In this document: piece after piece, positions 7,840 through 39,324 of the stretch
Layout of the letters: the number at the start of each line of letters is the position of its first letter
Position numbering within the stretch: the stretch's first letter is position 1
IMG/VR virus record: IMGVR_UViG_3300025137_000027
Span: 1-64,000 of that record
Origin: a virus
DNA length: 64,000 nt
Direction: 5' to 3' (one strand)
The notes under the pieces: generated by a model
What the model was told of the DNA's origin: nothing
Databases searched by the model: none
The model's input: only the letters and a program-made list of their open reading frames with translations
Program-made: the position numbers and the translations under genes

Positions 7840-7962
7840 GAGGATTTAAACGTCCTTAAAAGATTAACGAATAGATTCGAAAAGGAAACCCTTGGGGGTC
7901 AGCCTACACGTCTGCCTGCAGTAAAACGTCAGAAAACGTACTACTACTAAACGTAAACGGTG

Positions 7963-10098: not shown

Positions 10099-11135
10099 GA
10101 CTAGCAGTCCTTTTGTTTTTTACCGCTTTACCATTTGTAGGACAGGCGCAGGTATTTAAGAATTTTTTTAAATACTCTACGTTATACGCAGCTGCTAATG
10201 GCAATAATTCTTTAGCTACAACAGAAGCGTATTCTATAGATGGTAATACTGTTCAGTATGACTTAATCCAAACGCCCTTTGACTACAGCTTAACACTAGG
10301 CATTCGTAAGATTGCTAGGTTTGGTTATGAGAATAGAGCAAATGCATTTTACGATGGAACTGAAAAAACTTATGGAGATGATGCTACTATAGGTAAAAGG
10401 CAAGGCTTTGAGTTTTTATCTGAGATTGATTATCGCAGGCAACAAGGTCGGGTGCTAGTAAACCAACATCACTTTTTACGGTATGTATCAAAACGTTGGC
10501 TGGCTAAAGTTGAATACTTAGAAGATGGGTTTGCAGATGTGAAGTACGCGGAGGGGTCACAGCGTTTGCGTATTAATAGTAAAGGCAAGCTTTCTTTTAA
10601 CGCAGGCATTGCGCAGCGCATTTCAGAGGCGTACGGCTACGATCCCATCGCGGAGTGGGTAGAGGCTAACAACTCTGTTCATTACACCACCTTAGCGCTC
10701 CAAGAGGGTTATAGCGTGGATTTTAATACACAAGACTTCCTTAATCCAAATGGCGAAAGGGTAGCAAGTAGCATAGATGTTTGGAGAGAGGTTGTGATTC
10801 CTACGGTTCTTAGCGACTATGCTGAAAAACAACGTCTACTTCTTGGGGACCAGTGGTGTCATAGTCTAGTGCTAGGTTACGACTACTACTACAATAGCAA
10901 AGATTTATGGTTGCACACCTGGGGTAACTTCTACCCTTACCATCTAGATCTAAACAACGAGTACTCTTACAATACTCTTATCGGAGCTAACGACTGGTTA
11001 GACTTGTCAGTAGGCGTGGTTAGCGGGTGGCGAATTACTAAAAGTTTAGGTATTTTTTTAGAGGGGACTTACAACCGGTATTGGAACCGTTCGTGGCATA
11101 ATTTTTCTGCTGGGGTAAACTATGTAATTTATTAA
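10095..11135 (+). CDS. putative outer-membrane beta-barrel protein
   Basis: Signal peptide ending GQA-Q; many amphipathic, aromatic-rich strands; C-terminal beta-signal-like NFSAGVNYVIY. Confidence 0.65.
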   Translation: MRLAVLLFFTALPFVGQAQVFKNFFKYSTLYAAANGNNSLATTEAYSIDGNTVQYDLIQTPFDYSLTLGIRKIARFGYENRANAFYDGTEKTYGDDATIGKRQGFEFLSEIDYRRQQGRVLVNQHHFLRYVSKRWLAKVEYLEDGFADVKYAEGSQRLRINSKGKLSFNAGIAQRISEAYGYDPIAEWVEANNSVHYTTLALQEGYSVDFNTQDFLNPNGERVASSIDVWREVVIPTVLSDYAEKQRLLLGDQWCHSLVLGYDYYYNSKDLWLHTWGNFYPYHLDLNNEYSYNTLIGANDWLDLSVGVVSGWRITKSLGIFLEGTYNRYWNRSWHNFSAGVNYVIY

Positions 11136-11425: not shown

Positions 11426-11429
11426 ACTA

Positions 11430-21800: not shown

Positions 21801-24800
21801 GTTCTAATCCCCCTCAAGCTCAAGATGGAGGAGGAGAGTTTAGCGTAAATCAAGCTCCACAACAGGTTGTTACTGAGCCGGGCATTGGGTTTCCTGAGCC
21901 AGCAGGGTATACTGGGGATGTGCCGACTGCTCCCGCTAATGTGGAACTTCGCGAGACACTGCCAGGAGAAAACCCTACACGTAATACGGTAGTCTCTGAC
22001 GTGACAACAGTACAATTTCAATTTACAAATGCGAATAATAGTACAGAGGAAAATAAAGGTAGTACGATTAATGACAAGTACTTAGCCGGACTAAAGAAGG
22101 TTATTGCAGGGCTACCTATAGGCACTGTAATAGAAGCTAGAGAAGGAGAATCTAATGGGAGAATTGCACTACGAGCAGATAAAACTCTTTTAGCAGACAT
22201 TAAAATTCAAGAGTTTTCTCAAGAGGTGCAAGCGGAGTTAAGGCTGGGAAAGACAGTCGCACTAGTAACAACATCAGAAGTTAGTCGAGGCTTTGTGGGA
22301 GGCGAAACACTTTGGGAAAACAATAATGGAGTAAGGGTTAGCGCGAATCAGAAAAACGACTTTCCAACAGAGGACTTAGTTAGAGAGGTATTACCGAATG
22401 GTGTAGAAGATATCAAAGGCATGAATTTAGTGCCTTCTAATTCTAACAATTTACTGCCTATAGCAGGGGTAGAATCTATGGGGATTCCTGGTGAAATGGT
22501 TACGGATCCAAAGTTTGCAGGTAATTTATTGGTTTCTACTGTAGATGCTTTAACTAAAGAAGAAGCGTATCACTTTGTGGAACTCTCGCCAATGACATAC
22601 GAAAGTTCTACCCAATTGGTAGACTTAGTAGATGCATTTAATCAATTTGTTCTTAGCCCAAACTCTATGAGTCCTAGTCAAAACGATCTTCTTAGAAAGT
22701 TCGCAGAGGCTTCACAAATAGATTTGCAACAACCCGCAGACGAAGTTTCTAAGGCTGTTGCGTTAAAACTTCGACGGATTATACAGGGCGCAGAGTTCTT
22801 AAGTGAGCAAACAAAGAAACTAAAAAATAACCCTAGGATTAAAAGGCCGTTACTTGCTGTGGAGCCTTTGGGTTCAGGGAGGGACGGAATTACTTTGGTG
22901 GCTTTACTGCAAGGAGATACGTATTATTCCCATGACAAAGAGGGGAATCGACAAGGCCCCGGTGCGGAAGCTATTGCAAGTTTTATAACCAAGCGTCCTG
23001 CAAACGTTACTCAAGAAGGCACTACAGTGTACCCAGATGGTAAAGGGAATTTTGATGTTTTTTCTACTTTGGAAATGGTCCAGAAGCAAGGAAAATTTGT
23101 GTATCGTGCGCCTTTTGTAGTAGACGGCAAAATTTATAACCGGCAATTTGCAAAGGTAGAGCTAAGCATGAACCCTTTGGTTCCTGTTCCTACTAAATTT
23201 AAAAGATTAGAAGAGACACCCGAACCTGCTGGCAATACATCTTCTGAGGTTGTAATTGAAAAAAATACGCAGTTTGATCCAGGCAACTATGATCCGAATA
23301 AGTTTGGTCTTGACGCAGACTACTTGCCATCTAGTTCCCAAGAGAGTACCGACCCAATGGAACGCGCAGGGGCTTTGTATGAAGTTCCAGGACTGACTTC
23401 TCGTCAGTTGCGTGACGGGATTAACTTCAGTACAGGAATGATGGCACGAGCGTTTTCTACTCACATTCGAACGAAAGACCGCAGTGTACCTATTTCAAGT
23501 GATTACCTGCGACGTTATGTGAAAGCCAACTTAGAAAATAATCTTGCATACTATAAGTCTCTTAAACAAGAGGGCTTTACTGTGAAAGTAGTTGAAGCAC
23601 ATGAAGCCTATCTCAGCTCTGAAAACTTCAATCCTTTAATGGATTTGGCTATGGTTGAGCTGCTGCAACAAGCAAAAGACACAGTCGTAGGTCAGGGCGA
23701 TTTGAATAAGGCGCTCGAAAACATCCGGGATAGAGCGGCAAATTCTGAAATGTTAGATGATGCAGAGCAAGCTGAACGGGATGCAAATCCTATGGCTGCG
23801 TTTGATGAAAACTTTGCTTTTGGAGTAAACCCTAAAAGCACTTTGCGGTTAGAGTCTAAGCTTTTGCTTATGGGCTTAGTCGATGAGCGTGGTACAACCG
23901 GGAAGTCTTTTGGTCTAGCTGGACGTAAATTTTTGAACAACACAGATCTTTTAGATAAGCTATCTGCTGTGCTTGCAGGTGTTGCGCCTAGCTATATTAA
24001 AGTTAAAGAACGCTTAAAAAAATACACTAAGACTTATCCTCAGTTTCAGTCTGTTCTAGATATAATGACGGATACTTATGCAATTAATAGCATACCTCCG
24101 GGTTTAAAAGCAACCTCTACTGCTAAAGAGTACGCTGAAATTCAAAACCGTGCTTTGTCTGTCCAAGACATGATTCGCAACCAGTTTGTAGTCTTTGCAA
24201 ACAAAGAGGTTACAACTTATGACTCGGTTAAAATTGTAGACGTTACTGCTACACAAGCAAGGGACATCCAAATTTGGAACAGCAACTCCCGTAATATGCG
24301 GGAGCATGCAGGAAACGATATTCGTTCAGCTTTGATTGAACAAGAGTTCTTTGATCTTGATGGTGCGATTAATAAGCCGAAGTTTAAAAACCTTTACGAT
24401 CAAATCGTAGGAATTTCTGAGTTGCCAGAATCAGACCAAGCTGCTAAATTTTCTTTAATTCTTGAAGATGAATTAAATATTTCAGTAACGCCTGATGCTT
24501 TAACAAGTAAAAACTTGACGGACAATGAAAAGGGTGATAGAATATTTCTTGGGGTAGAAGATGCATTAAGGAAAGGAGAAGCGGGAACTGCTGGGATTGT
24601 GGGGCGTTTTAAAACAGCCTTAAAAGATTTAAGCACGTCAGATTTAACTTTAGAAGAAGCATTAAGCTCTGGGTCACAAGCGGGTCGAGCGGTAAAAGAC
24701 TTTTTTGTAGGGTTAGCGGATTACCGTGAAAACTTTATTCAAAAAAGTAGTAAAGACGGGGACAATAAAACTCGGTATCAATACAGTGCGCCTAAACTGG

Positions 24801-27800
24801 TGCATCAGATGCTAAGAGAAATCAAGACAGCAGCTGTAGAAAATCCAGCTTCGGTTCTTTTAGGAAAGCGTTTTGCACAACTTAGCGCAGAAAACCGTCG
24901 CTTGATTGAGTTGACTTACTTAAGTGGCATTAAAAAGGGAAATAAAGGAAAGGAACGAAACTTTCACGGCATGCAAGTGGGTGACAATGTTTTAGCCCAA
25001 CTTGCTTTTTACGGCAATCGAAACACATATAAACAGCGGGATGCAAACGGGGAGGCTATAATAATATCAAAATTTTTGATGCCTACCCTAGCTGATAAAC
25101 AAACAATGCCGATTTTGCAAGCCCCTGCTTTAAGTGCTAAGCAGGCTGGTGTTGTTTTAAACGAAGAGGTATCTGAAAAGTCTTGGAAGACTCTAACGTT
25201 TAAAGACGTAGTGCCTAACGTAGCTGGTGCTTATGAAACAATTCTTAAAGACAGCGTTGATCTTGAGATAGATCGTATTATGCGTATCCAAGCGGGAAAT
25301 ACAGAGGGCATGACTGCAGCTCAACGAGTAGCAGTAGGATTTGTAATGGTTCCTTCCTTAAACGGAGTAGCTGAAACCTTTATGGAAGGTAAAATCAAAC
25401 GCGCGGACTTCCGAGCAGAAATTCATAGCAAAGCAGTAAGGGTATTTGAAGAAGCGATGAACGAAGATATGCAGCACATGCTTCGTGAGACAGAGGGTAC
25501 TATCTGGAATCCTACAGATAAAGAGGGGGTTGAAACTATAGGTGAGCTATTTCACTTTAACGGGTCTAAAAAGAAAAGTCCTGTTAAGGTTCATGTTGCT
25601 CCAACAGCTAATCTTCAAAAAGGAGGCAGGCACATAGTAGCATTTGTAGCGTTTTTAGCTAAGTATGCTATGGATAGCATGAACGTTCGGACAAGTGTTA
25701 TTATGGACACTATGGGAGATCCTGGGGCATTTGTAAAAACAGATAAAGAGACTGGTAAAATTAAACCTGCAAAAACTGCTACTAATTTAGGAAAGCGGTT
25801 TGCATCTCTTATTGCCCCTGGCGCGGCAATACCCTATGTCACATACAATAATCGAAAAGGTATTCCTGTAGATAGCCAAAAGGTAAACTTTCTGGTTATC
25901 CCTGCTCGCGTAGTATCTAAAGCCGGGCATTATGAATACTTGAAAAAGATAGGACAGTCTGCAGATGAATTGTCTATGCAGGAAAATTACGATAGCGCAG
26001 ATGCTGCAGAGTATACAACTGTGGAAGAGCATCTGGGTATACTCTATGCGAAAGGTGAAATAACTCGTCTGGAAATGGACGATGTTTTAAGTAAAATAGC
26101 AAACAACATAAAGCTAACCAATGAGCTAGATTGGTTTCAACCCATGAAGCCGGTAACTACTGCGCGTGTGGGGGATCATATGCTTTATGTTAAGAGTGCA
26201 GCCTTCCCGTTAGTGCCTCAACTTACTCAAGGGACAGAGCTAGACAAGCTACGGGTATTTATGGAGACTAATAATGTCCAACGTGCTGCTTACGACAGTG
26301 CTGTAAAGTTGGGCAACGAGTGGTCGGATGTTAATGACACGTTAGCTACTGAAGCCCAAAAAATGATTCCGGTTCACGTAGGAGACACGGTTGAAATTAA
26401 TGTAGACGAGTTAAAAAAGCGTGTTATAACTGGCGTCGATCGTAAGTACATGCGGATACAACAGGAAGTCCCGAGCAGTACTACAAATGAGAAGGTTCAC
26501 GGATCGCAGGTAGCTAAATTGCTTCTAGTTGATATAATCAGTTCTAAATTTATTTTAAATGGAGAATCGGTAAAAGGGGCTAAGATGTATCAGGCTTACT
26601 TGAAGGCTCGTAGGGAAGAGCAAAACGCTCGTTTAGAAGTATTTGCTGCTCGATACGGGATGGAGTACGATAGCGACACGGGTATATCGCACACTCCAGA
26701 GTCAAGGAAGAAGTTTGCCGAGCGTATAACTGAAGAAGGTGTTGACCGTTCCTATGATGCTAACGAATTAGCGCATCTTTACTTTGACCAGGAAACAGTA
26801 CGTTTCTTGACACCTTTAGAGGCAGGCCCAAGTTCAGAACGCATTGAAAACCTCGTCAAAAGTATAATTTTTAAGGAAGTATACGAGCCGAGTATAGAGG
26901 GCTTTAGTGGACCTATACGACCGGAGGTAGGCATTAAGTCTATTGACGAGGATTTAGTTAATAGCGGAGACATTATGTGGGTTATGAAAGGAGGCGTGCG
27001 TCTCTTTGATGGCAATAAACTGAAGGTTGCTCAGGAAGGGCAGATGGATCAGATTATCATGCCTTGGAAATACAAAGCCAGTCTTGAAAAATATATGGAT
27101 GATGATGGCAATATCAATGCTGATGACTTACCTCCAGAGTTGCTCAAGGCTTTTGCCTATCGTATTCCAAATCAACGAAAGAGTTCTTCTGCTGCATTCG
27201 AAATTGTAGGGTTCTTGCCCAAGAGTTACGGAGATACCTTAATTGTTAATGAAGAGCTGGTAGGACGTATTGGACAAGACTACGACATCGATAAGATGTT
27301 TGGGTTCTTGTATTCAATTGAACAAACAGAGGATGGTTCTATAGAGGTTATTAGGAGCGAAGAGAAAGCTAGTGCGCAACGACGGGTTGCGGCTGCACGC
27401 AACGAACAAGTTGATATCTATCTCGCCTCTATGGACCCTCAGGACAATGCGGTTGAAAAGGCTATACACGCTCCTGTAACAGACGGCTATGCGGTAGCGT
27501 TAGCAGATCAGATGGATGGACTACTGCATGATGATGCAGTTTTGGGGCTACCTATGAGCCAGTCCTATAACTCTCGTAAAGCAGATGCAGCTCGAAGTGC
27601 GAAAAGTTCTATTGGAGTATTTGCAAAACAGCATGTTCTTCACGCGCAACTTCAACAGTCTCTTGAAACAAGAGGTTACGGAGGTATTAGTTTTCGAGAG
27701 GGAGAGTTTATTACAATTCTTTCAAGCCCAAATGCGAAGAAACCTACAGAGAATATAGCTTTAGGGAACATAGGAATTCATGACGCAGACTTTAAACTTG

Positions 27801-30800
27801 AGTATAAAAATCCTCCAGCAGCAGGCAACCGTAGCGATCAGTTTAGCCGATTGTTAAATCATTCTGTAGATAACGAAAACAACGGGTTGTTAAGCAAGCT
27901 AGGAATTACACAAGATACTTGGCCTGTATGGACTGGCTTAACGCATATGGGGTACAACCAAGAGACTATAGCTTTTCTTGTAGCTATGCCTGCAGTTCAA
28001 CAGTACTTAGCTTTAAAGAAAAAGACGGGACGTTTAGCTAGTACAGGAAGTACTATAAAAATTAGTACGCTGATAGCACAGGAAATAACAAAGCTGCAGG
28101 GAGATTCTAAAAATCCTATAGATATTAAGACTTTACCAGAGTTAGATAAGGAGTCTATGCTGGATATTATTAAAGGCGCGTCTGAGAAAAGTGAGAGAGA
28201 AATTTCTCAAATGAATCTGAGAGCTTTACTAGCTGTTGAGAAGCTAGAGGTTATGGGTAGAGATCTGAGTCGTGTACAAAACTTTATGGGCTTAGACACT
28301 AACCGACCAAAAACATTAATTGGATTGCAGGTGGCTTTGTCTAAAATGAAAAACCCTCAAAGTGACAAAGAAGGGACTACATTCTCTGTACTAGACGCTG
28401 TATCAGCCGCAGACATGACAGTTTCAGGGCAGATTTCGAATCTAGTTAAAAGGACTGCAACAGGCTTGTTGAATATTCAAAATAACCTGCTGCCGCAAAA
28501 TATTATTTCGTCTTTAGTAACTGATTTTGAAAAAGCAGGTCTAACTCAATCTGTAGAAGAATCTATTGGTGACTTGATAAAAGGTGTCAAGAGTTACAAT
28601 TACTCTTTGTTTACAGCTAAACTAGCGGGTAGGAGTGCAGAAGAAGTAAGAGCAGAAGCTCACAATCTTGAGACGGGCGGTATTGCAACTCTTTTAATTG
28701 AGGCACGTCAGAATCCTGAAATAGCTAATAATTCTTTTATTAAGCAGTTGATTGCTGTAAAGGCACCAGGTTCATACCCACACCTAGAGTTTCCAGGAGA
28801 CCGAGAGCTAGAGGGAAGTTCTACAGAACTACATCGAGGCTTTTTAAGTTTACTACGTAGTGCTGATCCTGAAGTAAAGAAGTTTGGGGAGTACTTGGTT
28901 GTATATGCTTTGGCTACTAGTGGAGGTAAACTCAAAGCAAGAGGCTATTTAAAGTATGTTCCGGCAGAATACTTACAATCTAAAGGGCTAGGAGATATTG
29001 TCAATATTCCTAATATTGCTGAAAGCGTGTCTACTGATAAAGTCATAACTGAGGTAATTCGTCATAATGATACTTTAGCTCCTTACTACAACAGTAAGGC
29101 AGACGCGGGCATATTTACCTCTAACGAAGTATTACACCTAGACGTTGAAGCAGCATCCTTTAGAGGGCACGTTCGTGTTAAGAATGCTTTATATGCTCCT
29201 TCTGATACTATGGGGCGCATGGTTAGACATAAAGGAAAAGACGTTGAAGCTATTCCTTTGATACTGGTGAGTAAATTAGGCGATTATTTGACAGATGAGT
29301 ACACGTCAGATTTTCAGCCAGCTAATAAGAAACCTATAGTTAAGAGTCTAAAAGGTAATACTACAGCTCCAGCACCTGATGCGCCTCCCCAAGGAACTAT
29401 GGATCAAAGCTATGAACCAACCCGTAACGTAGCGGAAGAGTACGACCCAAATTTTAATCCGGTTGTTCCCATGAATATGGGTTTGTCGGGTAAGGTTAAT
29501 GATGAGATAGTCCGGTCTGAGAATCCAAACAAAATGCCAATGGGCATTAAGGAGTTCTTAAAAGTTTCTGAGTTACGTAATAACCCTTTTATACAAGAGT
29601 TAGCGCAGACTCAAGAATCGTTACAACCTGAAGATAGAGTTACGGTAGTTGTTAGTGAGGACTTGCCAGGAAAGGGTATGTATAATGCTGGTACTAATAC
29701 TGTTACTATTCGTCAGGATATGGTAAACGATATTCGTACTGTAACTCATGAGTTGGTCCACGCATTTACAAGCCTATCTATTAAGGTAGCGCAAGGCAAG
29801 GCAAAAATATCTGACCCTAACAAAAAGGCTAAGATGGTAGCTGCAGTGAACGAGCTGCAAAAACTTCTGAATATTGCACGTACTCCAGAGTCCTTGCAAA
29901 AGATGGGATTAACTTTTGCGGGTCAACAACAATCTGCAAGAGGCTACAGGGCTTTTAAGAATCAGAGAGATGGAAAGGCCTTGACTGCAGAAGAGCAGCT
30001 TGATTTGGATTTCTTCAAAGAAAACTTAGATAAGTACTATGCTTTTGTAAGTCTAGAAGAGTTCGTAGCGGAGTCTTTTTCTAATAAAAAGTTTGCTGAG
30101 AGGATTGCAAAGCTTTCTTTGAATAGAAATGAAACCTTTATCGATAGGTTTATGCAGGCTGTAAATAAAGCGTTAATCGCTTTAGGCATAAACTTTGGTA
30201 AGGACACTAAGTTCTTAAAGGAGATTTACACGCTGAGTATGGGAATCGTGGACATCCAAACAGGAGGTCAGATTGGGTTGATTCCCGGGCAAGAGATAGC
30301 GTCTAGTGATTTGATTGACGCAGTTACGGCTGTGGATGTAGGGGGACAAAACCTACAAGGACTAGATCAGATGAAGGACTACAAGGAGAAGCGTATCCGA
30401 CAGTTTGAGGAACTTAAGAGTCGGTATAACACTAATAGGGAGTTTGTACGGAGGGTGGAAGCTAGGCTGGTACAAGAGCGTAAGGATTTGAAGGTGCTTA
30501 CTGATGATAGTGTAGAGATAACGCCTGACTACTTCCTGGCTGTTGGTCAAAGAGAACTTGATTTTGCTCGTAGGACTATCGAGAACGTTGACTCTACCGA
30601 CCCGCAGATTACCATGGCTCTGAGTGCTCTAGAGAATATTTATAGTGTGGTCGAGTTCTACGATAAGAGTAGAGAGATTTTGAAAGATCCTGCGCTGTTA
30701 GATGTTGCTACTGCGCTACGTAGGGAAGCATCGGAATTGAAAGATAATTATTTGGATAAGGCTCGGGACATAACACGTCGTGGTGCTAGACAAGAATTAG

Positions 30801-33586
30801 AGACTCTAGGCGTTAACGTAGATGCTAATAGCTTTGAGACTTTACAGCAGGTTGGGTGGATGAAGTCTTTCTTTATGGATGCGTCTCGTCAGGGCACGGT
30901 AGAACTTTCTTTCTTAGATAAGATTGTAAGAGATGCTAGCCAATTGCAGCGGGTACAGTTTAATGCTCGTGCTAAGCGGTATATGGAAAATAGTAAGAAG
31001 TTTAAAAAGACCTCTTACTTTAACGAACACGGCTGGAATGGCATGGTTGAACTAGATGCGCAAGGGAATCCTACAGCTAATATGCTTACCATGCTTAGCG
31101 GTTCTTATGAATCGGAGTACAACCTTAAGCGTGCTACGTTAAACAATTCAAAAGCTTTCTATGATTGGAAGCGAAGTGTTACGGGACGTATTGATATCTC
31201 TGCTATGTTTGATATCTCTGGTACAGAGGTAAAGCGTAAAAACAATCCTAAGTACGTAGAGTATCTGAATAAAACGTATGGCGCAGCTGGTGCAGCAGAA
31301 TTTTTGCAGCAGCAAGAAACGATGGCGCAGGAGTATGTAGACGCGCGTACCAGTGAATTTGATACGCTGGAGCTTACCCTAGGGGAAAACGCAACAGATG
31401 CAAAAGCTTTATGGGAGGCTAAGAATAATCCTATCCAAGCTTACAAACGTGCTGAGGGTAAAGGGGGTCGTTTTATTAAAGGCGCAACAAGTAGATTCTT
31501 GTTAGACATTCCTTTACGCACTGTAAAGGGTAAGGCTACGAATTACTATGATGCTAGGTTTGATCAGCTTCAGTCTGAGCCTGATGCATTGGCTTTCTAT
31601 AATGACTACCGCCAGCAGATAAAAGAGATGATGGCAATGTTGCCAGCACATAAGATGACACGTGAAGCGCACCTTGTACGTAATGGACTTTTTATTCCAG
31701 CAATTGCGAAATCATTGACGAACGATTTATTTAAAGCAGAAGGGCTGGCAACCAGGATGAAGCAGCTGCCTGATAATATTCGTAGCGCGTTTACAATTGA
31801 CCCTGAGTACAATATTAATAAACTTATTGACCCAGTAACTGGACGTCCTCGTCAAGAGCTTCCTACTTATTTCTTGGGACAGGTAGATCCTGAAACTCAG
31901 GACTACGATATGGATAGGACCTTCCTTGCTTTTACTATGATGGCTACCACTTACGATAGTAAGAATGCTATTGAAGATAAAGTTCGGATGACGAAAAGTG
32001 TTATGAGCAATGCGCGTGTAGGACGCGTAAAGAAAGGATTAGCAGAAAGTGTTTTAAATAAATTAGGGGCAGAGTCTCCTGTAGGGTATGCTGATGAGGC
32101 AGCTAGAGCAACTACTATGAGAGTAGTAAATACTGTAGTAGATACTTTCTACGGTTACCAAAGTAATCAGGATATTACTTTTGAAGCAAATGAAAATTTG
32201 TTCACTAAAAAGCAAAAGGAAAAACTAGACGAGTTGAAAGACCAAAAGCTTGCTGCAAAAACGCAAGAAGAAAAAGACTTAATTCAAAGTCAAATAGAAG
32301 AAGCTACTCCTCAAGTAAGTGTGTATAAAGGAATTCGAGGGGTACAACAGTTTATCCAAGCCAAAGGCATGGCATGGAACGTTCCAGCAGCTATTGTGAA
32401 TATGGCGTTTGGAGCCATAAGTGTCTTCAAGCACGCTAGTGGTCAGCGTGACTTTACTGAAGCAGACACCCGTAAAGCTACAGGTATTATGCTAAGTAGT
32501 TCATTGAATAATATGACCTTAAATACAGGCTTAACGCAGAATAAGGAAGCGTTGAAGACTCAAAATGCTATGATAAGCTTTGATTCACTGAAGGACTTTA
32601 CAGAGATGCGGCACGACCAACGCAAGTTTAAAACTCAATCTGGTGAAACTAGCATAAACCAGGCAGAATCTCAGGGCTTTAACAAGCTACGTATGTACGA
32701 AATTCAACGTAGCTCAGAGTATTTTGTGTATGGGCAGGTCATGATTTCTGTATTGCTACATGAAAAAGTCGAGGGTAAGTCTTTGTGGGAGCACATGGGT
32801 GGAGATGGGATTATTGATATTGATGGTTATCGTCCGGGCGAAGAGAAACACTTGGCTTTGATGAATAAGATGGACCAGATCAATAAACGCATACACGGTA
32901 ACTACGACCCTTCGAGTCCTATCGCAGTGAAGAAGACAATGATTGGGCCTCTTCTTATGCAGTTCCGTAGTTGGTTGCCTGAATCCGTAGCAGCTAGATT
33001 CGAAAAAGAAAAGTTTGATCCGTATTTGCAACGAGATGTAAAGGGCACGTATCAAACGATGTTCTTTAGTAGTGCTATTCGTAAGCACCTAACTGCAATG
33101 CTTCCAATGTTGGTGCCGAGCTGGGCACGTACGAAAGGTATGAATGAGATGAGTGCAGAGATCTCAGCAGTGGACCAAGAAAACATTAGAAAGTTCGCGG
33201 CTAGCTTGCGTCAGTACTTACAAATAATGATTCTTATTTCTGTCTTACGTGCCTTGAAAGATGATGAAGACGATAAAGAAGCGTTAATGATTCTGAATGC
33301 AAGTCTGAATGTAGTGGACAGAGCTGAAAATGACTTAGCTTTGTTCGGTCGTCCTGGGGCATTCTTAGATATGACTCAAGGTGATTTCTTAGCTGCAATT
33401 GGCGCAGCTAGTGAAGTTGAGAAACTTGGAGAAGCTGTAGTTAAAACAGCGCAAGGAGACGGAATAATTGAAACCGGTGTTTACGCTGGTAAGTCACGAA
33501 TGTGGCATCACTTCCAGAAATTAGTACCACACTTAGGAGCAGTACAGCGGATAGCTAACAACTTAGATCGCGAACTAGGCTCTTGA
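18854..33586 (+). CDS. giant virion-packaged RNA polymerase polyprotein (crAss-type two-barrel RNAP) with zincin-like domain
   Basis: 4910 aa; AYRIPNQ, catalytic GQDYDIDK (27278-27295), PTLADK, HSVDNE; HELVH (29747-29761) plus EEFVAE. Confidence 0.85.
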   Translation: MAEENQEPVNLGDLGTASSSDIRKALEGQPSPVEAKDAVDSETPTETPDAPPASPGQDITGFLTNSSNNIVQKENGSFKFINPYDNNLDVDLDQFETQRRRVSEGSALSGILNGVEGLEESFTYTSLEDTAKRSQEAQGVINKMKNGMTQLVADTGINVAQGFGALLYGVPSAIANGDITKLYDNSLANNLDKGTEFLDEFYKIKRGGDQSKGQKVANFLFDDLAGGASFVMGAIATEMAFSALTAATFGGAAPAQAAVTAGLVARGTRLAQKTLQGGKALISGSLVDDALRASRSLGAAATREGAASALQAAAQTARTPMALQAAARVGRQLITGASMESGMEARHMLNASVENQKQQYEELNGKGSFSEEMAGDFREEISGYADGVFGANMALVGASNMLMFPKLFGVGLRKGMSTSKFIDTSKLSQKARARLAKNLGVVEGKLPRLVDAARGNTLGRIAGRTGTVGRVTAANTKNALYEGFIEEGGQGAISRSTEDYISKRYDPKGVKDTVRFADSFLEGLKGSYTTKDGFKEIGIGMLLAFTGVPMYARNQSTTPSSNSETAGKPEKKWKWQMMGGYADQRKALIARDKKMDAIMNLSEKHGDVGGILRAEIANMNRQNVLQKEQDASIQEGRFKEAKDAEAEMIFSHAATKVVTGRYEQSIAEAQQIMDEMSDEELREQLGPSAKNMTEEDLRAHRNKAMETYRSRMDRARQAYDRAGTVYRGEDADIHTGVAHMLYMTKEKDAREKSIAGEIADAIENMNEGDVLDLVRMQADLNMTESTTNSFLDLINKYQNIDKQLNTKLERKIIKNIDPEKADQRQKDIASAQQAREILAEQMETMLETMATAQNVERGKYDFDLSTFDRLGDLHRAIRRQQGVEFQEADLKALFEDMYAVAQDRLNLIGNYNDFIKPGGVERFESKMIGSIERLAKMSPEQRQEARQQAAAEEDADADSAVAEEIVKAEEAATKQASSPQNPGSNPPQAQDGGGEFSVNQAPQQVVTEPGIGFPEPAGYTGDVPTAPANVELRETLPGENPTRNTVVSDVTTVQFQFTNANNSTEENKGSTINDKYLAGLKKVIAGLPIGTVIEAREGESNGRIALRADKTLLADIKIQEFSQEVQAELRLGKTVALVTTSEVSRGFVGGETLWENNNGVRVSANQKNDFPTEDLVREVLPNGVEDIKGMNLVPSNSNNLLPIAGVESMGIPGEMVTDPKFAGNLLVSTVDALTKEEAYHFVELSPMTYESSTQLVDLVDAFNQFVLSPNSMSPSQNDLLRKFAEASQIDLQQPADEVSKAVALKLRRIIQGAEFLSEQTKKLKNNPRIKRPLLAVEPLGSGRDGITLVALLQGDTYYSHDKEGNRQGPGAEAIASFITKRPANVTQEGTTVYPDGKGNFDVFSTLEMVQKQGKFVYRAPFVVDGKIYNRQFAKVELSMNPLVPVPTKFKRLEETPEPAGNTSSEVVIEKNTQFDPGNYDPNKFGLDADYLPSSSQESTDPMERAGALYEVPGLTSRQLRDGINFSTGMMARAFSTHIRTKDRSVPISSDYLRRYVKANLENNLAYYKSLKQEGFTVKVVEAHEAYLSSENFNPLMDLAMVELLQQAKDTVVGQGDLNKALENIRDRAANSEMLDDAEQAERDANPMAAFDENFAFGVNPKSTLRLESKLLLMGLVDERGTTGKSFGLAGRKFLNNTDLLDKLSAVLAGVAPSYIKVKERLKKYTKTYPQFQSVLDIMTDTYAINSIPPGLKATSTAKEYAEIQNRALSVQDMIRNQFVVFANKEVTTYDSVKIVDVTATQARDIQIWNSNSRNMREHAGNDIRSALIEQEFFDLDGAINKPKFKNLYDQIVGISELPESDQAAKFSLILEDELNISVTPDALTSKNLTDNEKGDRIFLGVEDALRKGEAGTAGIVGRFKTALKDLSTSDLTLEEALSSGSQAGRAVKDFFVGLADYRENFIQKSSKDGDNKTRYQYSAPKLVHQMLREIKTAAVENPASVLLGKRFAQLSAENRRLIELTYLSGIKKGNKGKERNFHGMQVGDNVLAQLAFYGNRNTYKQRDANGEAIIISKFLMPTLADKQTMPILQAPALSAKQAGVVLNEEVSEKSWKTLTFKDVVPNVAGAYETILKDSVDLEIDRIMRIQAGNTEGMTAAQRVAVGFVMVPSLNGVAETFMEGKIKRADFRAEIHSKAVRVFEEAMNEDMQHMLRETEGTIWNPTDKEGVETIGELFHFNGSKKKSPVKVHVAPTANLQKGGRHIVAFVAFLAKYAMDSMNVRTSVIMDTMGDPGAFVKTDKETGKIKPAKTATNLGKRFASLIAPGAAIPYVTYNNRKGIPVDSQKVNFLVIPARVVSKAGHYEYLKKIGQSADELSMQENYDSADAAEYTTVEEHLGILYAKGEITRLEMDDVLSKIANNIKLTNELDWFQPMKPVTTARVGDHMLYVKSAAFPLVPQLTQGTELDKLRVFMETNNVQRAAYDSAVKLGNEWSDVNDTLATEAQKMIPVHVGDTVEINVDELKKRVITGVDRKYMRIQQEVPSSTTNEKVHGSQVAKLLLVDIISSKFILNGESVKGAKMYQAYLKARREEQNARLEVFAARYGMEYDSDTGISHTPESRKKFAERITEEGVDRSYDANELAHLYFDQETVRFLTPLEAGPSSERIENLVKSIIFKEVYEPSIEGFSGPIRPEVGIKSIDEDLVNSGDIMWVMKGGVRLFDGNKLKVAQEGQMDQIIMPWKYKASLEKYMDDDGNINADDLPPELLKAFAYRIPNQRKSSSAAFEIVGFLPKSYGDTLIVNEELVGRIGQDYDIDKMFGFLYSIEQTEDGSIEVIRSEEKASAQRRVAAARNEQVDIYLASMDPQDNAVEKAIHAPVTDGYAVALADQMDGLLHDDAVLGLPMSQSYNSRKADAARSAKSSIGVFAKQHVLHAQLQQSLETRGYGGISFREGEFITILSSPNAKKPTENIALGNIGIHDADFKLEYKNPPAAGNRSDQFSRLLNHSVDNENNGLLSKLGITQDTWPVWTGLTHMGYNQETIAFLVAMPAVQQYLALKKKTGRLASTGSTIKISTLIAQEITKLQGDSKNPIDIKTLPELDKESMLDIIKGASEKSEREISQMNLRALLAVEKLEVMGRDLSRVQNFMGLDTNRPKTLIGLQVALSKMKNPQSDKEGTTFSVLDAVSAADMTVSGQISNLVKRTATGLLNIQNNLLPQNIISSLVTDFEKAGLTQSVEESIGDLIKGVKSYNYSLFTAKLAGRSAEEVRAEAHNLETGGIATLLIEARQNPEIANNSFIKQLIAVKAPGSYPHLEFPGDRELEGSSTELHRGFLSLLRSADPEVKKFGEYLVVYALATSGGKLKARGYLKYVPAEYLQSKGLGDIVNIPNIAESVSTDKVITEVIRHNDTLAPYYNSKADAGIFTSNEVLHLDVEAASFRGHVRVKNALYAPSDTMGRMVRHKGKDVEAIPLILVSKLGDYLTDEYTSDFQPANKKPIVKSLKGNTTAPAPDAPPQGTMDQSYEPTRNVAEEYDPNFNPVVPMNMGLSGKVNDEIVRSENPNKMPMGIKEFLKVSELRNNPFIQELAQTQESLQPEDRVTVVVSEDLPGKGMYNAGTNTVTIRQDMVNDIRTVTHELVHAFTSLSIKVAQGKAKISDPNKKAKMVAAVNELQKLLNIARTPESLQKMGLTFAGQQQSARGYRAFKNQRDGKALTAEEQLDLDFFKENLDKYYAFVSLEEFVAESFSNKKFAERIAKLSLNRNETFIDRFMQAVNKALIALGINFGKDTKFLKEIYTLSMGIVDIQTGGQIGLIPGQEIASSDLIDAVTAVDVGGQNLQGLDQMKDYKEKRIRQFEELKSRYNTNREFVRRVEARLVQERKDLKVLTDDSVEITPDYFLAVGQRELDFARRTIENVDSTDPQITMALSALENIYSVVEFYDKSREILKDPALLDVATALRREASELKDNYLDKARDITRRGARQELETLGVNVDANSFETLQQVGWMKSFFMDASRQGTVELSFLDKIVRDASQLQRVQFNARAKRYMENSKKFKKTSYFNEHGWNGMVELDAQGNPTANMLTMLSGSYESEYNLKRATLNNSKAFYDWKRSVTGRIDISAMFDISGTEVKRKNNPKYVEYLNKTYGAAGAAEFLQQQETMAQEYVDARTSEFDTLELTLGENATDAKALWEAKNNPIQAYKRAEGKGGRFIKGATSRFLLDIPLRTVKGKATNYYDARFDQLQSEPDALAFYNDYRQQIKEMMAMLPAHKMTREAHLVRNGLFIPAIAKSLTNDLFKAEGLATRMKQLPDNIRSAFTIDPEYNINKLIDPVTGRPRQELPTYFLGQVDPETQDYDMDRTFLAFTMMATTYDSKNAIEDKVRMTKSVMSNARVGRVKKGLAESVLNKLGAESPVGYADEAARATTMRVVNTVVDTFYGYQSNQDITFEANENLFTKKQKEKLDELKDQKLAAKTQEEKDLIQSQIEEATPQVSVYKGIRGVQQFIQAKGMAWNVPAAIVNMAFGAISVFKHASGQRDFTEADTRKATGIMLSSSLNNMTLNTGLTQNKEALKTQNAMISFDSLKDFTEMRHDQRKFKTQSGETSINQAESQGFNKLRMYEIQRSSEYFVYGQVMISVLLHEKVEGKSLWEHMGGDGIIDIDGYRPGEEKHLALMNKMDQINKRIHGNYDPSSPIAVKKTMIGPLLMQFRSWLPESVAARFEKEKFDPYLQRDVKGTYQTMFFSSAIRKHLTAMLPMLVPSWARTKGMNEMSAEISAVDQENIRKFAASLRQYLQIMILISVLRALKDDEDDKEALMILNASLNVVDRAENDLALFGRPGAFLDMTQGDFLAAIGAASEVEKLGEAVVKTAQGDGIIETGVYAGKSRMWHHFQKLVPHLGAVQRIANNLDRELGS

Positions 33587-33589
33587 CAC

Positions 33590-34858
33590 ATGAAAAATAA
33601 AATAATCTTTAAAACGCTTAGCCTACTTTGGTTAGGCGTTTTTCTTGGCTATAATAATTATAGTCAATCTGTCCCCTTTATAGAAGGAATAAACTTATTA
33701 TTTCCTGGGTGCACTGATCCTATGGCGCTCAACTACAATGAGGAAGCTACTGAAGATGATGGCACCTGCGTCTATTCTATAGGCCCAGATCCAGTCATAC
33801 TTAATATAACTGTTACAGATGAAAGCTGCCAAGAGTACGAGACAGGAGTCCTGTCTTCTTACGTATACGAGGCTACTATAGTAAATATAGGAAACGAAGC
33901 AGTTACAAACTTTTGCCTTAGCGACTTCTTAGGTACCACGTTTAACTGTTTTAACGGGGTCTCTAATCTTGCTGTTTGGATTCAACCCGGGGATACTATA
34001 ACTGTGACGGGTAACATCAATAGTATAGGCACATGGGTAGAAGGACAAGGAAACTATATGACTGTAACGAGTGTTCCTGGGGAGGTTATTACAGGTAATA
34101 ATAACTTTGTTTTTTATATGCCTGAGGGAGTGGATTGCGTAGAGCCTGCTGATCCTGAATACTGCGATACTCTACTGGTCTACGTGACTGAAATAGACAC
34201 GCTTATTGAGTATGTAGAACTTCCGGCTGATACAGTGACTGTGCTGCAGCTAGACACGTTGTATATTCCTTGGGAGTATTATTTCTACGATACGGTATAC
34301 GTAGATGTTTTTGACACTATTTACGTGACAATGCTAGATACTGTAATTATTACAGAAATAGATTTACAGTATGTATATGAAACAGATACTATTCTTGTAC
34401 TACAAGTAGACACAGTTCTTGTGTCTCAAATAGATACTCTCTTTCAGGAGGTAGTAATCTATGAATATATCTACCAGACGGATACAGTACTCCAAGTAGT
34501 ATACGATGAGGTTTTAATAGACTGCGGGACCGGTCTACCTTGTATAGGAGGTTTCTCAGGCATGACGTGTGAATCTGTATTCATACCAAATGCGTTTTCT
34601 CCAAACAACGATGGCATTAATGATACTTTCTATGTAGTATCTGAATCTTATGACTGCTGGTTAGAATGGCAGTTAATCGTATACAATAGGTGGGGTACTG
34701 CAATTTGGAGCAGCGATGATCCGCAAGCCCAGTGGTATGGACAAGCAGAAAATCAAATGCATTACGTTTCAGATGGCGTGTATGTCTGGACTCTGCGGGC
34801 AAAGGGAGCCACAGGTAACGCGTTAGATCTATCAGGGTCAGTTACGGTCTTCCGTTGA
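33590..34858 (+). CDS. secreted protein with T9SS type B (gliding-motility/CHU_C) C-terminal domain
   Basis: Signal peptide; GCTDPMALNYNEEATEDDGTC repeat; DT repeats; C-terminus VFIPNAFSPNNDGINDTF...YNRWG...W.G...GVYVW...GSVTVFR. Confidence 0.88.
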   Translation: MKNKIIFKTLSLLWLGVFLGYNNYSQSVPFIEGINLLFPGCTDPMALNYNEEATEDDGTCVYSIGPDPVILNITVTDESCQEYETGVLSSYVYEATIVNIGNEAVTNFCLSDFLGTTFNCFNGVSNLAVWIQPGDTITVTGNINSIGTWVEGQGNYMTVTSVPGEVITGNNNFVFYMPEGVDCVEPADPEYCDTLLVYVTEIDTLIEYVELPADTVTVLQLDTLYIPWEYYFYDTVYVDVFDTIYVTMLDTVIITEIDLQYVYETDTILVLQVDTVLVSQIDTLFQEVVIYEYIYQTDTVLQVVYDEVLIDCGTGLPCIGGFSGMTCESVFIPNAFSPNNDGINDTFYVVSESYDCWLEWQLIVYNRWGTAIWSSDDPQAQWYGQAENQMHYVSDGVYVWTLRAKGATGNALDLSGSVTVFR

Positions 34859-35125
34859 CGCATTGGTTACACGTCCGCAAATCATGTGCTCTGAGATTAG
34901 CACGTGGTCTTCTCCGTCGATAGGAATAATTAGACCTTTAGATTCAGGATGTACCATAACAGTATCGCCAACTTTAACATTGCGGCAATCAGGTCCGACT
35001 GCTAGAACGGGCAATACATAAGAAGGTCTAACAGTAGTCTGTTCCGTAAGGATAATACCAGACTTAGTCTTCTCGTGCTTTTCGTGAGGCAGAATCACGT
35101 AGTTGTGTGTGGGTATAAAATTCAT
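34838..35125 (-). CDS. groES: co-chaperonin GroES (Cpn10)
   Basis: P..NYVIL, KTKSGIIL mobile loop, VLAVGPD..NVKVGDTV. Confidence 0.85.
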   Translation of the reverse strand: MNFIPTHNYVILPHEKHEKTKSGIILTEQTTVRPSYVLPVLAVGPDCRNVKVGDTVMVHPESKGLIIPIDGEDHVLISEHMICGRVTNASTEDRN

Positions 35126-35136
35126 TGCTGATAAAT

Positions 35137-35271
35137 TTAGCGTCCTTGCCCTCTGTAAGATTTCTTATAGAGCTTGGAGTTATTACTTTTAGATGTCTTT
35201 GTTTTAGCGTGTACACCTGGACGCTTTACACTTTGCTTAGTTGCAAATGTGCTAGTCATATTCTTTGCCAT
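35137..35271 (-). CDS. 44-aa basic protein (below the ORF-track cutoff)
   Basis: MAKNMTSTFATKQSVKRPGVHAKTKTSKSNNSKLYKKSYRGQGR; KRPGVHAK...YRGQGR recurs in phage small proteins; TAnnTTTA element just upstream. Confidence 0.7.
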   Translation of the reverse strand: MAKNMTSTFATKQSVKRPGVHAKTKTSKSNNSKLYKKSYRGQGR

Positions 35272-35280
35272 ACCGTAAAG

Positions 35281-35320
35281 GTAGTAACTGAGGCGGGACT
35301 CTCACCCGCACTCAGTCTAC
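35281..35320 (-). terminator. long hairpin downstream of ung (terminator or processing site)
   Basis: GTAG-ACTGAG-GCGGG / CCCGC-CTCAGT-CTAC inverted repeat; no clear U-tract. Confidence 0.4.
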
Positions 35321-35323
35321 TGT

Positions 35324-39323: not shown

Positions 39324-39324
39324 C

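What the first reader, a model, noticed from the sequence alone, without database searches (positions are those of the whole stretch)
33590..34858. Second T9SS cargo, with a type B CTD, at the end of the late operon
Seen: signal peptide, the same GCTD repeat as the 7963 protein, an Ig/CARDB-like segment and a clear type B CTD. It starts 3 nt after the RNAP stop and overlaps groES tail-to-tail. Established: type B CTD proteins such as SprB need a PorP/SprF-family barrel, usually encoded adjacent; none is adjacent here. Inference: the phage uses both T9SS routes, borrowing a host PorP/SprF or the 10095 barrel, and may compete with the gliding adhesin.
Basis: partly seen in the sequence, partly recalled or inferred. 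Interest (0 to 1): 0.8.

Follow-up and report, generated by a model that had tools for sequence, protein, structure and literature searches.

The report
Phage T9SS type-B glyco-stalk protein
A marine crAss-like phage encodes an exported protein with a type IX secretion "type B" signal and a stalk of 11 host-type O-glycosylation sites, so it probably uses the host's export and sugar-adding machinery to put its own protein on the infected cell's surface.

Summary
ORF 33590-34858 (+, 422 aa) is a real gene of a 76.9-kb, about 96% complete marine crAss-like phage. It has a Sec signal peptide, one GCTD cysteine knot, a generic Ig-like beta-sandwich and a C-terminal T9SS type B domain (Pfam CHU_C 60.7 bits, cut-off 27). 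It starts 3 nt after the 4910-aa vRNAP-containing ORF and overlaps groES tail-to-tail by 21 nt.

Residues 186-317 are a repeat stalk with 11 DT[L/V/I] triplets, which is the Bacteroidota O-glycosylation sequon.

- **Phage-only core.** Head plus stalk plus CTD occurs on 233 IMG/VR contigs. It gave one marginal match in 401 Flavobacteriales genomes.
- **Mosaic.** Heads are swapped between unrelated phages.
- **No shuttle gene.** No phage carrying the family encodes a PorP/SprF. The 10095 barrel is an outer-membrane barrel but not a detectable PorP/SprF, and a complete phage has the cargo without it.
- **Orphans are normal.** Three marine Flavobacteriales MAGs carry 37-61 type B proteins but only 9-20 PorP/SprF genes.

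Best reading: the protein is exported by Sec, O-glycosylated, passed through the host T9SS on a host shuttle, and displayed on the infected cell. Its purpose (receptor masking is my guess) is untested. This is a new variant of a known kind; only type A phage T9SS cargo was found in the literature searched.

The parts
33590..34858 (+). Whole gene (422 aa plus stop): a phage-encoded T9SS type B substrate
   Evidence: ORF listing and translation. There are 507 homologues, all carrying PF13585, and 233 viral contigs encode a relative.
33590..33664 (+). Sec (SPI-type) signal peptide, aa 1-25, with Gln just after the likely cleavage site
   Evidence: Read from the sequence; modelled as a helix at residues 4-24. 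The feature is conserved in 66 of 73 full-length viral relatives. No dedicated signal-peptide predictor was available.
33704..33775 (+). GCTD cysteine knot, aa 39-62, one copy
   Evidence: The same motif occurs about eight times in the 712-aa protein at 7960. It gives 87 and 48 matches in two marine Flavobacteriales MAGs.
33779..34141 (+). Ig-like beta-sandwich 'head', aa 64-184
   Evidence: AlphaFold pLDDT 75-86. VIA-align Z 8.9 to generic sandwich domains. It is 93% identical to the head in a different phage lineage and 76% identical to the head on an unrelated 162-kb viral contig.
34145..34540 (+). DT-repeat stalk, aa 186-317: 11 DT[L/V/I] triplets, matching the Bacteroidota O-glycosylation sequon D(S/T)(A/I/L/V/M/T)
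   Evidence: Density is 8.3 sequons per 100 aa against 0.35 in the other window ORFs. Shuffles give 1.2 +/- 1.0, with a maximum of 6 in 5000. The array is conserved in 80 viral relatives, with a median of 11 in the densest 132 aa. AlphaFold does not model it (pLDDT < 30).
34541..34855 (+). Cys-rich linker (IDCGTGLPC) and T9SS type B C-terminal domain, aa 318-422
   Evidence: CHU_C 60.7 bits and TIGR04131 34.3 bits. The motifs PNAFSPNNDGxND, NRWG, W.G, DGVY and G.VT.FR are shared with bacterial CTDs that precede Pfam-verified PorP/SprF genes.
18854..33586 (+). Context: the upstream 4910-aa virion-cargo/vRNAP ORF. Its stop lies 3 nt before the gene, so co-transcription is likely.
   Evidence: aa 2374-2825 match 6VR4 at E 2.8e-16. 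The junction was read. One RNA-library contig bridges 33156-33690.
34838..35125 (-). Context: groES-like gene, convergent with the finding, 21-nt overlap
   Evidence: Cpn10 E 1e-10; sequence read.
10095..11135 (+). It is not shown to be a partner.
   Evidence: AlphaFold pTM 0.63; Foldseek matches porins, FadL and OmpG at E about 1e-7. It is not a PorP/SprF. In lineage B phages it sits in an operon directly convergent with the type B gene.
7960..10098 (+). Context only: a 712-aa exported protein with about eight GCTD knots and a threshold-level type A CTD
   Evidence: Por_Secre_tail 27.7 bits (cut-off 27) and TIGR04183 23.9 bits (cut-off 23).

Best explanation
The gene encodes a phage-made surface protein that depends on three host envelope systems.

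1. The N-terminal signal peptide sends it through Sec. This step is inferred from sequence, from five conserved cysteines and from family-wide conservation of the signal peptide.
2. In the periplasm, the host's general O-glycosylation system decorates the 11 DT[L/V/I] sequons of the stalk, giving a mucin-like glycan-coated spacer. The sequon array is shown; glycosylation is inferred.
3. The C-terminal type B domain is recognised by the host T9SS, and a host PorP/SprF-type shuttle takes the protein out of the translocon and holds it on the cell surface. This step is inferred, because the phage encodes no shuttle of its own.

The product is a glycosylated stalk that presents a swappable binding head (here a GCTD knot plus an Ig-like sandwich) on the infected cell. 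It is probably made together with the late, virion genes.

My preferred purpose, the weakest step, is remodelling or masking of the infected cell's surface. That would stop other phages, or the phage's own progeny, from adsorbing unproductively to the infected cell and its debris.
For: Type B CTD:
- It passes Pfam's cut-off and lies at the very C-terminus.
- It shares 16 invariant positions with bacterial and viral CTDs, four of them from bacterial genes followed by Pfam-verified PorP/SprF genes, three directly and one after an intervening ORF.

Export:
- A signal peptide is present in 66 of 73 full-length relatives.
- Cysteines C109, C312, C318, C327 and C356 are conserved across the family.

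Sequon array:
- 11 sequons in 132 aa, against 1.2 +/- 1.0 in shuffles.
- In 80 viral relatives the residue after DT is L, V, I or T in 916 cases. Triplets that do not fit the sequon are rare.
- Bacterial type B proteins have a median of 2.5 sequons in their densest window, against 11 here.
- The phage's other exported proteins have 0 to 3 sequons.
[quoted passage not shown] DTV and DTL are mapped sites (PMC8729774, PMC8550257).

Phage-specific and selected:
- 233 IMG/VR contigs encode a relative.
- The sandwich plus stalk gave one marginal hit (E 6e-4) in 401 Flavobacteriales genomes.
- Only 25 clusters match in a library of 1.84 billion representatives, and 18 of 21 scanned carry CHU_C.

Mosaic, host-facing evolution:
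- The protein is 81% identical to that of a phage whose TerL and portal are about 41% identical.
- Close relatives of the window phage carry versions only 47-60% identical.
- Head, stalk and CTD are 93%, 79% and 66% identical to L096, while the head alone is 76% identical to that of an unrelated 162-kb contig.

Host shuttle is plausible:
- Type B substrates need PorP/SprF shuttles, and three orphan substrates share one (PMC12618676).
- Type B proteins are anchored by PorP-like proteins (PMC9143113).
- Candidate host-type MAGs hold about three to four times more CHU_C proteins than PorP/SprF genes.

Host phylum: the terminase resembles those of crAss-like phages of Flavobacterium, Cellulophaga and Bacteroides.

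The gene is stable in nature. It appears in runs from 14 studies, and RNA-library contigs at least 99% identical cover parts of it and its 5' junction.
Against: Nothing here is experimental. Secretion, glycosylation and surface display are all inferred.

- TIGR04131 scores 34.3 bits, just under its cut-off of 35.
- Reported minimal type B secretion signals run up to 235 aa (PMC12618676). The last 235 aa of this protein would include the stalk.
- The host is unknown, so its T9SS and O-glycosylation system are assumed from phylum-level reasoning.
- The DT[LVI] repeat could be a purely structural beta-repeat whose match to the sequon is incidental. AlphaFold gives no model of it.
- In P. gingivalis, abundant T9SS cargo avoids O-glycosylation (PMC8729774). 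T. forsythia cargo is glycosylated.
- RNA-library contigs cannot prove transcription, because DNA carry-over is possible.
- The masking function has no direct support.
Confidence: 0.6

Rival explanations
1. Private shuttle: the phage's own outer-membrane barrel (10095-11135) collects and anchors the type B protein, making the phage independent of host PorP/SprF proteins.
For: In 11 related loci (lineage B) the type B gene sits directly beside, and convergent with, the operon that holds the barrel. The barrel has a signal peptide, a C-terminal aromatic residue and a porin/FadL-like fold. Its family is virus-only by the Atlas, with 3151 homologues.
Against: - No PF11751 match even at E 10.
- hhalign against five Pfam-verified PorP/SprF proteins gives probability 0.4%.
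- The N-terminal AQD.H.SQY...NPA motif of those proteins is absent, and so is a twin-cysteine C-tail like the one SprF uses (PMC12635249; read).
- The complete phage G405 carries the type B protein but no barrel.
- In the window the two genes are 22 kb apart.
- The barrel family is far larger than the cargo family (3151 against 507 homologues).
Confidence: 0.1
2. Released factor: the T9SS secretes the protein but it is then shed into the medium rather than kept on the cell. It would act away from the infected cell, for example by binding polysaccharide, particles or neighbouring cells through its head.
For: The T9SS delivers substrates both onto the cell surface and into the environment (PMC12618676). 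The heads look like ligand-binding modules, and one family representative carries an F5/8 type C (discoidin) head. GCTD knots are common in large surface or secreted proteins of marine Flavobacteriales.
Against: Type B substrates studied so far associate with PorP-like proteins for anchorage (PMC9143113). A long glycosylated stalk makes most sense as a spacer from a surface. A diffusible protein gives no obvious benefit to a lytic phage.
Confidence: 0.15
3. Lysis or envelope-disruption accessory: the protein belongs to the phage's end-of-infection envelope module and helps breach or destabilise the outer membrane, for instance by jamming the T9SS translocon.
For: In lineage B it lies between a DUF5675 gene and the module of type A cargo, barrel, membrane protein and thioredoxin-fold protein, which is flanked by a weak holin-like ORF. 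In other 58-67-kb phages it lies 3-4 kb from a DUF5675 gene. An earlier scan note placed that module next to lysis genes (e1-6080406).
Against: The lysis identity of the neighbours is weak: DUF5675 has no assigned function, and the holin match (E 0.0076) is below threshold. In the window the gene is 22 kb from that module. Hypervariable, swappable heads fit a binding role better than a conserved mechanical role.
Confidence: 0.1
4. Virion component: the repeat region forms a fibre shaft and the CHU_C-like domain is only a structural sandwich, so the protein is a tail fibre or decoration protein.
For: It is the last gene of the structural-gene strand. Its mosaic evolution resembles that of receptor-binding proteins. 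Short repeats are common in fibre shafts.
Against: The family has a conserved cleavable-looking signal peptide and conserved cysteines, which point to an extracytoplasmic protein, whereas virions assemble in the cytoplasm. There is no PHROG match to any structural family. The full set of type B secretion motifs is retained. The gene's position differs between phage lineages.
Confidence: 0.05

Closest known systems
Phage-encoded T9SS type A cargo of 'Cryophage' (Bellas et al. 2020, PMC7468147)
   Same: A phage of Bacteroidota carries genes with T9SS sorting domains. The genes are among the most variable in the phage pan-genome. The authors also proposed hijacking of the host T9SS, with possible roles in competition or superinfection.
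   Different: Those proteins have type A domains (the PorV and sortase route) on enzymes or a PA14 protein, and were described as a unique occurrence. This protein has a type B domain (the PorP/SprF route), no enzyme domain, a sequon-array stalk, and belongs to a phage-only family found on 233 viral contigs.
Orphan type B substrates of F. johnsoniae (Fjoh_1123, Fjoh_1720, Fjoh_4934) served by the shared shuttle Fjoh_1677 (PMC12618676)
   Same: They have a type B CTD with the conserved motifs, no adjacent PorP/SprF gene, and depend on a shuttle encoded elsewhere.
   Different: Those are chromosomal host genes. Here the substrate is on a lytic-type phage genome and the shuttle would belong to another organism. 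The bacterial type B proteins sampled here were mostly 700-2700 aa; viral members have a median length of 441 aa.
O-glycosylated T9SS cargo of Tannerella forsythia, such as the S-layer proteins (PMC8550257)
   Same: These are exported proteins that combine a T9SS C-terminal signal with D(S/T)(A/I/L/V/M/T) glycosylation sites.
   Different: Those carry scattered sites and type A CTDs. This protein concentrates 11 sites in 132 aa as the conserved core of a tandem repeat.
SprB/SprF gliding adhesin system (PMC12635249, PMC12618676)
   Same: A type B CTD surface protein held by a PorP/SprF-family barrel.
   Different: The phage protein is far smaller and has no cognate SprF gene. There is no evidence that it rides the gliding track.

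Membership tests
T9SS type B C-terminal domain (Pfam PF13585 CHU_C / NCBIfam TIGR04131) | Profile match above the curated cut-off | tested here: met
   PF13585 scores 60.7 bits against a cut-off of 27 (E 1.5e-16), and 64 bits in the genome search. TIGR04131 scores 34.3 bits against 35, marginally below.
T9SS type B C-terminal domain (Pfam PF13585 CHU_C / NCBIfam TIGR04131) | The domain lies at the extreme C-terminus and keeps the conserved motifs of functional type B CTDs | tested here: met
   The match covers aa 331-408 of 422. Alignment A4 with bacterial CTDs upstream of verified PorP/SprF genes shows 16 invariant positions, including PN.F.PNNDG.ND, RWG, W.G and G..T..R.
T9SS type B C-terminal domain (Pfam PF13585 CHU_C / NCBIfam TIGR04131) | N-terminal Sec signal peptide | tested here: met
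   Judged from sequence features and the AlphaFold helix at residues 4-24. It is conserved in 66 of 73 relatives. No SignalP-type tool was available.
T9SS type B C-terminal domain (Pfam PF13585 CHU_C / NCBIfam TIGR04131) | Cognate PorP/SprF shuttle gene adjacent (common, but not obligatory) | tested here: not met
   PF11751 is absent from G000 and from five other viral records that carry the family. My own PorP HMM finds none within 10 kb in 80 viral loci. Orphan substrates are known (PMC12618676) and are the majority in three MAGs.
T9SS type B C-terminal domain (Pfam PF13585 CHU_C / NCBIfam TIGR04131) | T9SS-dependent export of the protein or of a CTD fusion | not testable with these tools
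   This needs a secretion assay in a Flavobacteriia host and a T9SS mutant.
PorP/SprF shuttle family (PF11751), tested for the 10095 barrel | Profile or profile-profile similarity to PorP/SprF | tested here: not met
   No PF11751 match at E up to 10. My own HMM gives E 0.7. hhalign of A2 against A3 gives probability 0.4%.
PorP/SprF shuttle family (PF11751), tested for the 10095 barrel | Outer-membrane beta-barrel with a signal peptide | tested here: met
   AlphaFold pTM 0.63. Foldseek matches porins, FadL, OmpG and autotransporter barrels at E about 1e-7. This fold is not specific to PorP/SprF.
Bacteroidota general O-glycosylation substrates | D(S/T)(A/I/L/V/M/T) sequon on a protein exported beyond the cytoplasm | tested here: met
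   12 sequons, 11 of them in aa 186-317. Export is predicted from the signal peptide. The motif definition comes from PMC8729774 and PMC8550257.
Bacteroidota general O-glycosylation substrates | Glycan actually attached | not testable with these tools
   This needs glycoproteomics or a mass-shift assay.
crAss-like phage (context of the gene) | crAss-type terminase, portal, capsid, tail ring proteins and virion RNAP | tested here: met
   PHROG matches to terminase, portal and major head protein. CrAss_Ring_1 and CrAss_Ring_2 are present. The giant ORF matches 6VR4. The closest terminases belong to Flavobacterium, Cellulophaga and Bacteroides crAss-like phages.
Phage structural proteins (tail fibre or decoration) | Similarity to a known virion protein family | tested here: inconclusive
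   No PHROG family matched at E <= 0.01. Fold searches returned only generic sandwiches. The stalk could not be modelled.

The most novel reading that the evidence does not exclude
A widespread, phage-only protein family co-opts two Bacteroidota-specific envelope systems at once: general O-glycosylation and the type B branch of the T9SS. It plants a glycan-coated stalk with an exchangeable binding head on infected cells. By occupying host PorP/SprF shuttles or covering surface receptors, it blocks adsorption of competing phages and of the phage's own progeny, and possibly blocks gliding. That would be a new mode of phage-driven surface conversion in marine Flavobacteriia.
Probability: 0.25. 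Interest if true: 0.8.

Novelty: new variant of a known kind. Interest (0 to 1): 0.62.

Why it matters
T9SS substrates shape how Bacteroidota stick, glide, feed and are recognised by phages. A phage family that writes its own protein onto that surface would be a new layer of virus-host interaction in abundant marine bacteria.

- Type B CTD recognition by shuttles is poorly understood. Short natural substrates (about 350-650 aa) with diverse CTDs and no cognate shuttle gene are convenient probes of shuttle specificity.
- The DT[LVI] stalk is a compact natural array of O-glycosylation sequons. It could serve as a reporter or scaffold for studying the still-unidentified Bacteroidota O-oligosaccharyltransferase.
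- The head-swapping pattern gives a handle on what the phages are targeting.

Tried and rejected
- **Complex prediction** of the barrel (aa 20-346) with the CTD (aa 305-422) returned no verdict (score 0.00, controls not run). It counts neither for nor against binding.
- **megablast** of 33000-36000 against 50,697 phage records found no match.
- **tblastn** of the protein found only CTD-level hits, in two phages over 630 kb and one small fragment.
- **PHROGs** gave no family for this protein.
- **Foldseek against PDB** gave nothing at E <= 0.001.
- **Atlas feature search** gave no usable hit.
- **AlphaFold** with 27 sequences could not model the stalk (pLDDT < 30), so its fold is unknown.
- **Promoter and terminator scan, and the Bacteroidota TAnnTTTG motif**, were at chance level around the gene. 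There is no evidence for or against a separate promoter.
- **RNA-library contigs** leave parts of the region uncovered and cannot show strand, ends or level. Transcription is not shown.
- **Ely174 and DUF5675:** I checked whether the characterised F. psychrophilum endolysin Ely174 is a DUF5675 protein like the neighbour w_133. The paper does not say, and no PDB relative exists.
- **Host-fragment misassembly** is rejected. Base composition is uniform, and independent assemblies agree on the junctions.
I therefore checked its negative result separately with 401 Flavobacteriales genomes and with the exhaustive representative search.
Full report
**What is there.** The window is the first 64 kb of a 76,868-bp IMG/VR virus record that CheckV rates 96% complete. 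It is a crAss-like phage:
- PHROG terminase, portal and major head protein.
- CrAss tail ring proteins 1 and 2.
- A 4910-aa ORF whose residues 2374-2825 match the phi14:2 virion RNA polymerase, PDB 6VR4, at E 2.8e-16.
- A terminase closest, at about 38% identity, to those of crAss-like phages of Flavobacterium, Cellulophaga and Bacteroides.

The finding's ORF (33590-34858, + strand, 422 aa) starts 3 nt after the giant ORF's stop codon. It overlaps a convergent groES-like gene by 21 nt. It is the last gene of the long rightward block that holds the virion genes.

**Anatomy.** From N- to C-terminus:
- A Sec-type signal peptide (aa 1-25).
- One GCTD cysteine knot (aa 39-62).
- An Ig-like beta-sandwich (aa 64-184). 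AlphaFold pLDDT is 75-86, and structural matches are generic only (VIA Z 8.9).
- A 132-aa repeat region (aa 186-317) that AlphaFold cannot model.
- A Cys-rich linker (IDCGTGLPC).
- A type B T9SS C-terminal domain.

The CTD scores 60.7 bits on Pfam CHU_C (cut-off 27) and 34.3 bits on TIGR04131 (cut-off 35). I aligned it with four other viral members and four bacterial CTDs. Three of those bacterial genes are followed directly by a PorP/SprF gene, and the fourth after an intervening ORF. All were confirmed with Pfam or with my own PorP HMM. The alignment has 16 invariant positions in the known motif blocks. "CARDB-like" should be read as a generic sandwich, and the GCTD motif occurs once here against about eight times in the 712-aa protein at 7960.

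The repeat region is built around DT[L/V/I] triplets, 11 of them in 132 residues. D(S/T)(A/I/L/V/M/T) is the sequon of the general O-glycosylation system of Bacteroidota. It was defined by mutagenesis in B. fragilis and confirmed by glycoproteomics in T. forsythia and P. gingivalis. [quoted passage not shown]

| Measure | This stalk or viral family | Comparison |
|---|---|---|
| Sequons per 100 aa | 8.3 (stalk) | 0.35 in the window's other ORFs |
| Sequons in 132 aa | 11 | Shuffles of the same residues: 1.2 +/- 1.0, maximum 6 in 5000 |
| Densest 132-aa window, median | 11, minimum 7 (80 viral relatives) | 2.5 in 88 bacterial type B proteins |
| Residue after DT | L 268, V 267, I 236, T 145 | Non-sequon residues are rare |

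The few bacterial proteins with high counts carry unrelated GCDS-type repeats, not this stalk. The phage's other exported proteins have 0 to 3 sequons. The D and T of several repeats are invariant across the family. I read the stalk as a mucin-like array of glycosylation sites. A purely structural beta-repeat that only resembles the sequon cannot be excluded.

**A phage-only, mosaic family.**
- The protein has 507 homologues in the 5.8-billion-protein collection, all with CHU_C.
- An IMG/VR scan found 233 viral contigs encoding a relative.
- The best 80 hits in 185,579 bacterial and archaeal species genomes match the CTD, and in some cases part of the stalk, at 44% identity or less; none reaches the head.
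- The sandwich plus stalk gave one marginal match (E 6e-4) in 401 Flavobacteriales genomes.
- An exhaustive HMMER search of 1.84 billion representatives found only 25 clusters. Of 21 scanned, 18 carry CHU_C, and one has a discoidin-type head.

The gene does not follow phage phylogeny. The window's protein is 81% identical to that of a second lineage whose terminase, portal and barrel are 41%, 40% and 54% identical. The window's closest relatives have neighbouring genes 67-96% identical but carry versions only 47-60% identical.

By domain, head, stalk and CTD are 93%, 79% and 66% identical to that second lineage. The head alone is 76% identical to the head on an unrelated 162-kb viral contig whose stalk and CTD are only about 35% identical. 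At least three head types sit on the conserved stalk-CTD chassis. This pattern fits a host-facing binding module under diversifying selection and frequent exchange.

**Position in genomes.**
- In the window's lineage (9 loci) the order is giant ORF, type B gene, then groES and the early genes on the opposite strand.
- In the second lineage (11 loci) the gene lies between a DUF5675 gene plus groES on one side and, convergent and directly adjacent, the operon homologous to window 7960-11795 on the other. That operon holds the type A cargo, the barrel, a membrane coiled-coil protein and a thioredoxin-fold protein.
- In other 58-67-kb phages it lies just upstream of two large ORFs (705-707 and 811-823 aa, not identified) and 3-4 kb from a DUF5675 gene.

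The gene therefore sits at module junctions, as accessory genes do.

**The shuttle question.** Established knowledge:
- Type B substrates do not use PorV. They need PorP/SprF-type shuttles, often encoded just downstream.
- Orphan substrates exist and share a shuttle (PMC12618676).
- PorP-like proteins anchor type B proteins on the surface (PMC9143113).

What I found:
- No PorP/SprF gene in this phage.
- None in five other viral records carrying the family, three of them at least 94% complete.
- None within 10 kb of the gene in 80 viral loci.

It shows no similarity to PorP/SprF by Pfam, by my own HMM or by hhalign (probability 0.4%). A complete phage with terminal repeats (G405, 66 kb) has the type B protein but no barrel and no type A cargo.

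Three marine Flavobacteriales MAGs, chosen because they gave the best CTD matches, carry 54, 61 and 37 CHU_C proteins but only 15, 20 and 9 PorP/SprF genes. Shuttle sharing must be common in such hosts. The phage protein is best seen as one more orphan that uses a host shuttle.

**Is it real and expressed?**
- Base composition is uniform.
- The gene and both of its junctions recur in independent assemblies.
- Runs from 14 studies hold part of the stretch.
- A 19.5-kb DNA contig from another sample covers 28000-38268 at about 97% identity.
- RNA-library contigs at least 99% identical cover 33156-33690 (bridging the giant ORF and the gene), 33943-34556 and 34824-35251.

This rules out misassembly and is compatible with co-transcription with the late genes. 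These are contigs, so DNA carry-over cannot be excluded.

**Mechanism and function.** The most likely course is Sec export, O-glycosylation of the stalk, T9SS translocation with a host PorP/SprF shuttle, and display of the head on a glycan-coated stalk on the infected cell. I put about 0.75 on T9SS export, about 0.55 on glycosylation and 0.6 on the overall picture.

Why the phage does this is open. I favour surface masking or superinfection and anti-adsorption protection, at about 0.25. The reasons are the swappable heads, the tracking of something other than phage ancestry, and the precedent argued for type A cargo in Cryophage (PMC7468147). The rivals are a private phage shuttle, a released factor, a lysis accessory and a virion fibre. 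Each is listed with its own test.

**Novelty.** In the literature library I found phage-encoded T9SS cargo reported only with type A domains, and described there as a unique occurrence (PMC7468147; searches). I found no report of phage type B substrates or of a sequon-array stalk. I class the finding as a new variant of a known kind.

Noticed in passing
window 33704-33775 and 7960-10098: The GCTD cysteine knot (GC[TMS]D...NY[ND]...A..D[DN]G.C) has no Pfam family. It is very common in large proteins of marine Flavobacteriales MAGs: 87 matches in one genome and 48 in another. It may be a host-type surface module and a clue to the host.
   Followed up: partly
window 10095-11135: The outer-membrane beta-barrel, with a helical insert at about aa 180-250, has 3151 homologues, no Pfam family, and Atlas clusters that are 100% viral. 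It is more conserved (55-60% identity) and more widespread than the type B cargo. Its role is unknown.
   Followed up: partly
window 133-639 and 51349-51657; loci L121-L171: In viral contigs that share no other gene with the window, the type B family gene often sits near a DUF5675 homologue (23 of 80 loci). It also often sits next to a homologue of a very basic 102-aa protein (20 of 80 loci). No explanation so far.
   Followed up: no
L100 (IMGVR_UViG_3300027813_000005, 162 kb) 9419-11056: Its family member has a head 76% identical to the window's head, but its stalk and CTD are only about 35% identical. This is a clear case of head exchange between unrelated viruses.
   Followed up: partly
window 39180-39325: Two DNA runs from different studies carry contigs that skip these 146 nt, in the intergenic gap between the ORFs ending at 38978 and starting at 39325 (- strand). 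This is a natural indel polymorphism (table 5).
   Followed up: no
GenBank LR756502.1 (642 kb) 519118-519387 and LR745206.1 (635 kb) 27673-27963: Two huge uncultured phages also encode type B CTD-like C-termini (37-40% identity to aa 327-422). Phage type B cargo is therefore not limited to crAss-like phages.
   Followed up: no
Atlas clusters: The Atlas lists a 173-member cluster with Por_Secre_tail (type A) and a 57-member cluster with CHU_C, both 100% viral. Phage-encoded T9SS cargo may be much more common than the single published case. The structural scores were low, so this is only a lead.
   Followed up: no
window 11430-11795: This exported thioredoxin-fold protein (Pfam Thioredoxin E 0.0011, below cut-off) appears to lack the CxxC active site.
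   Followed up: no
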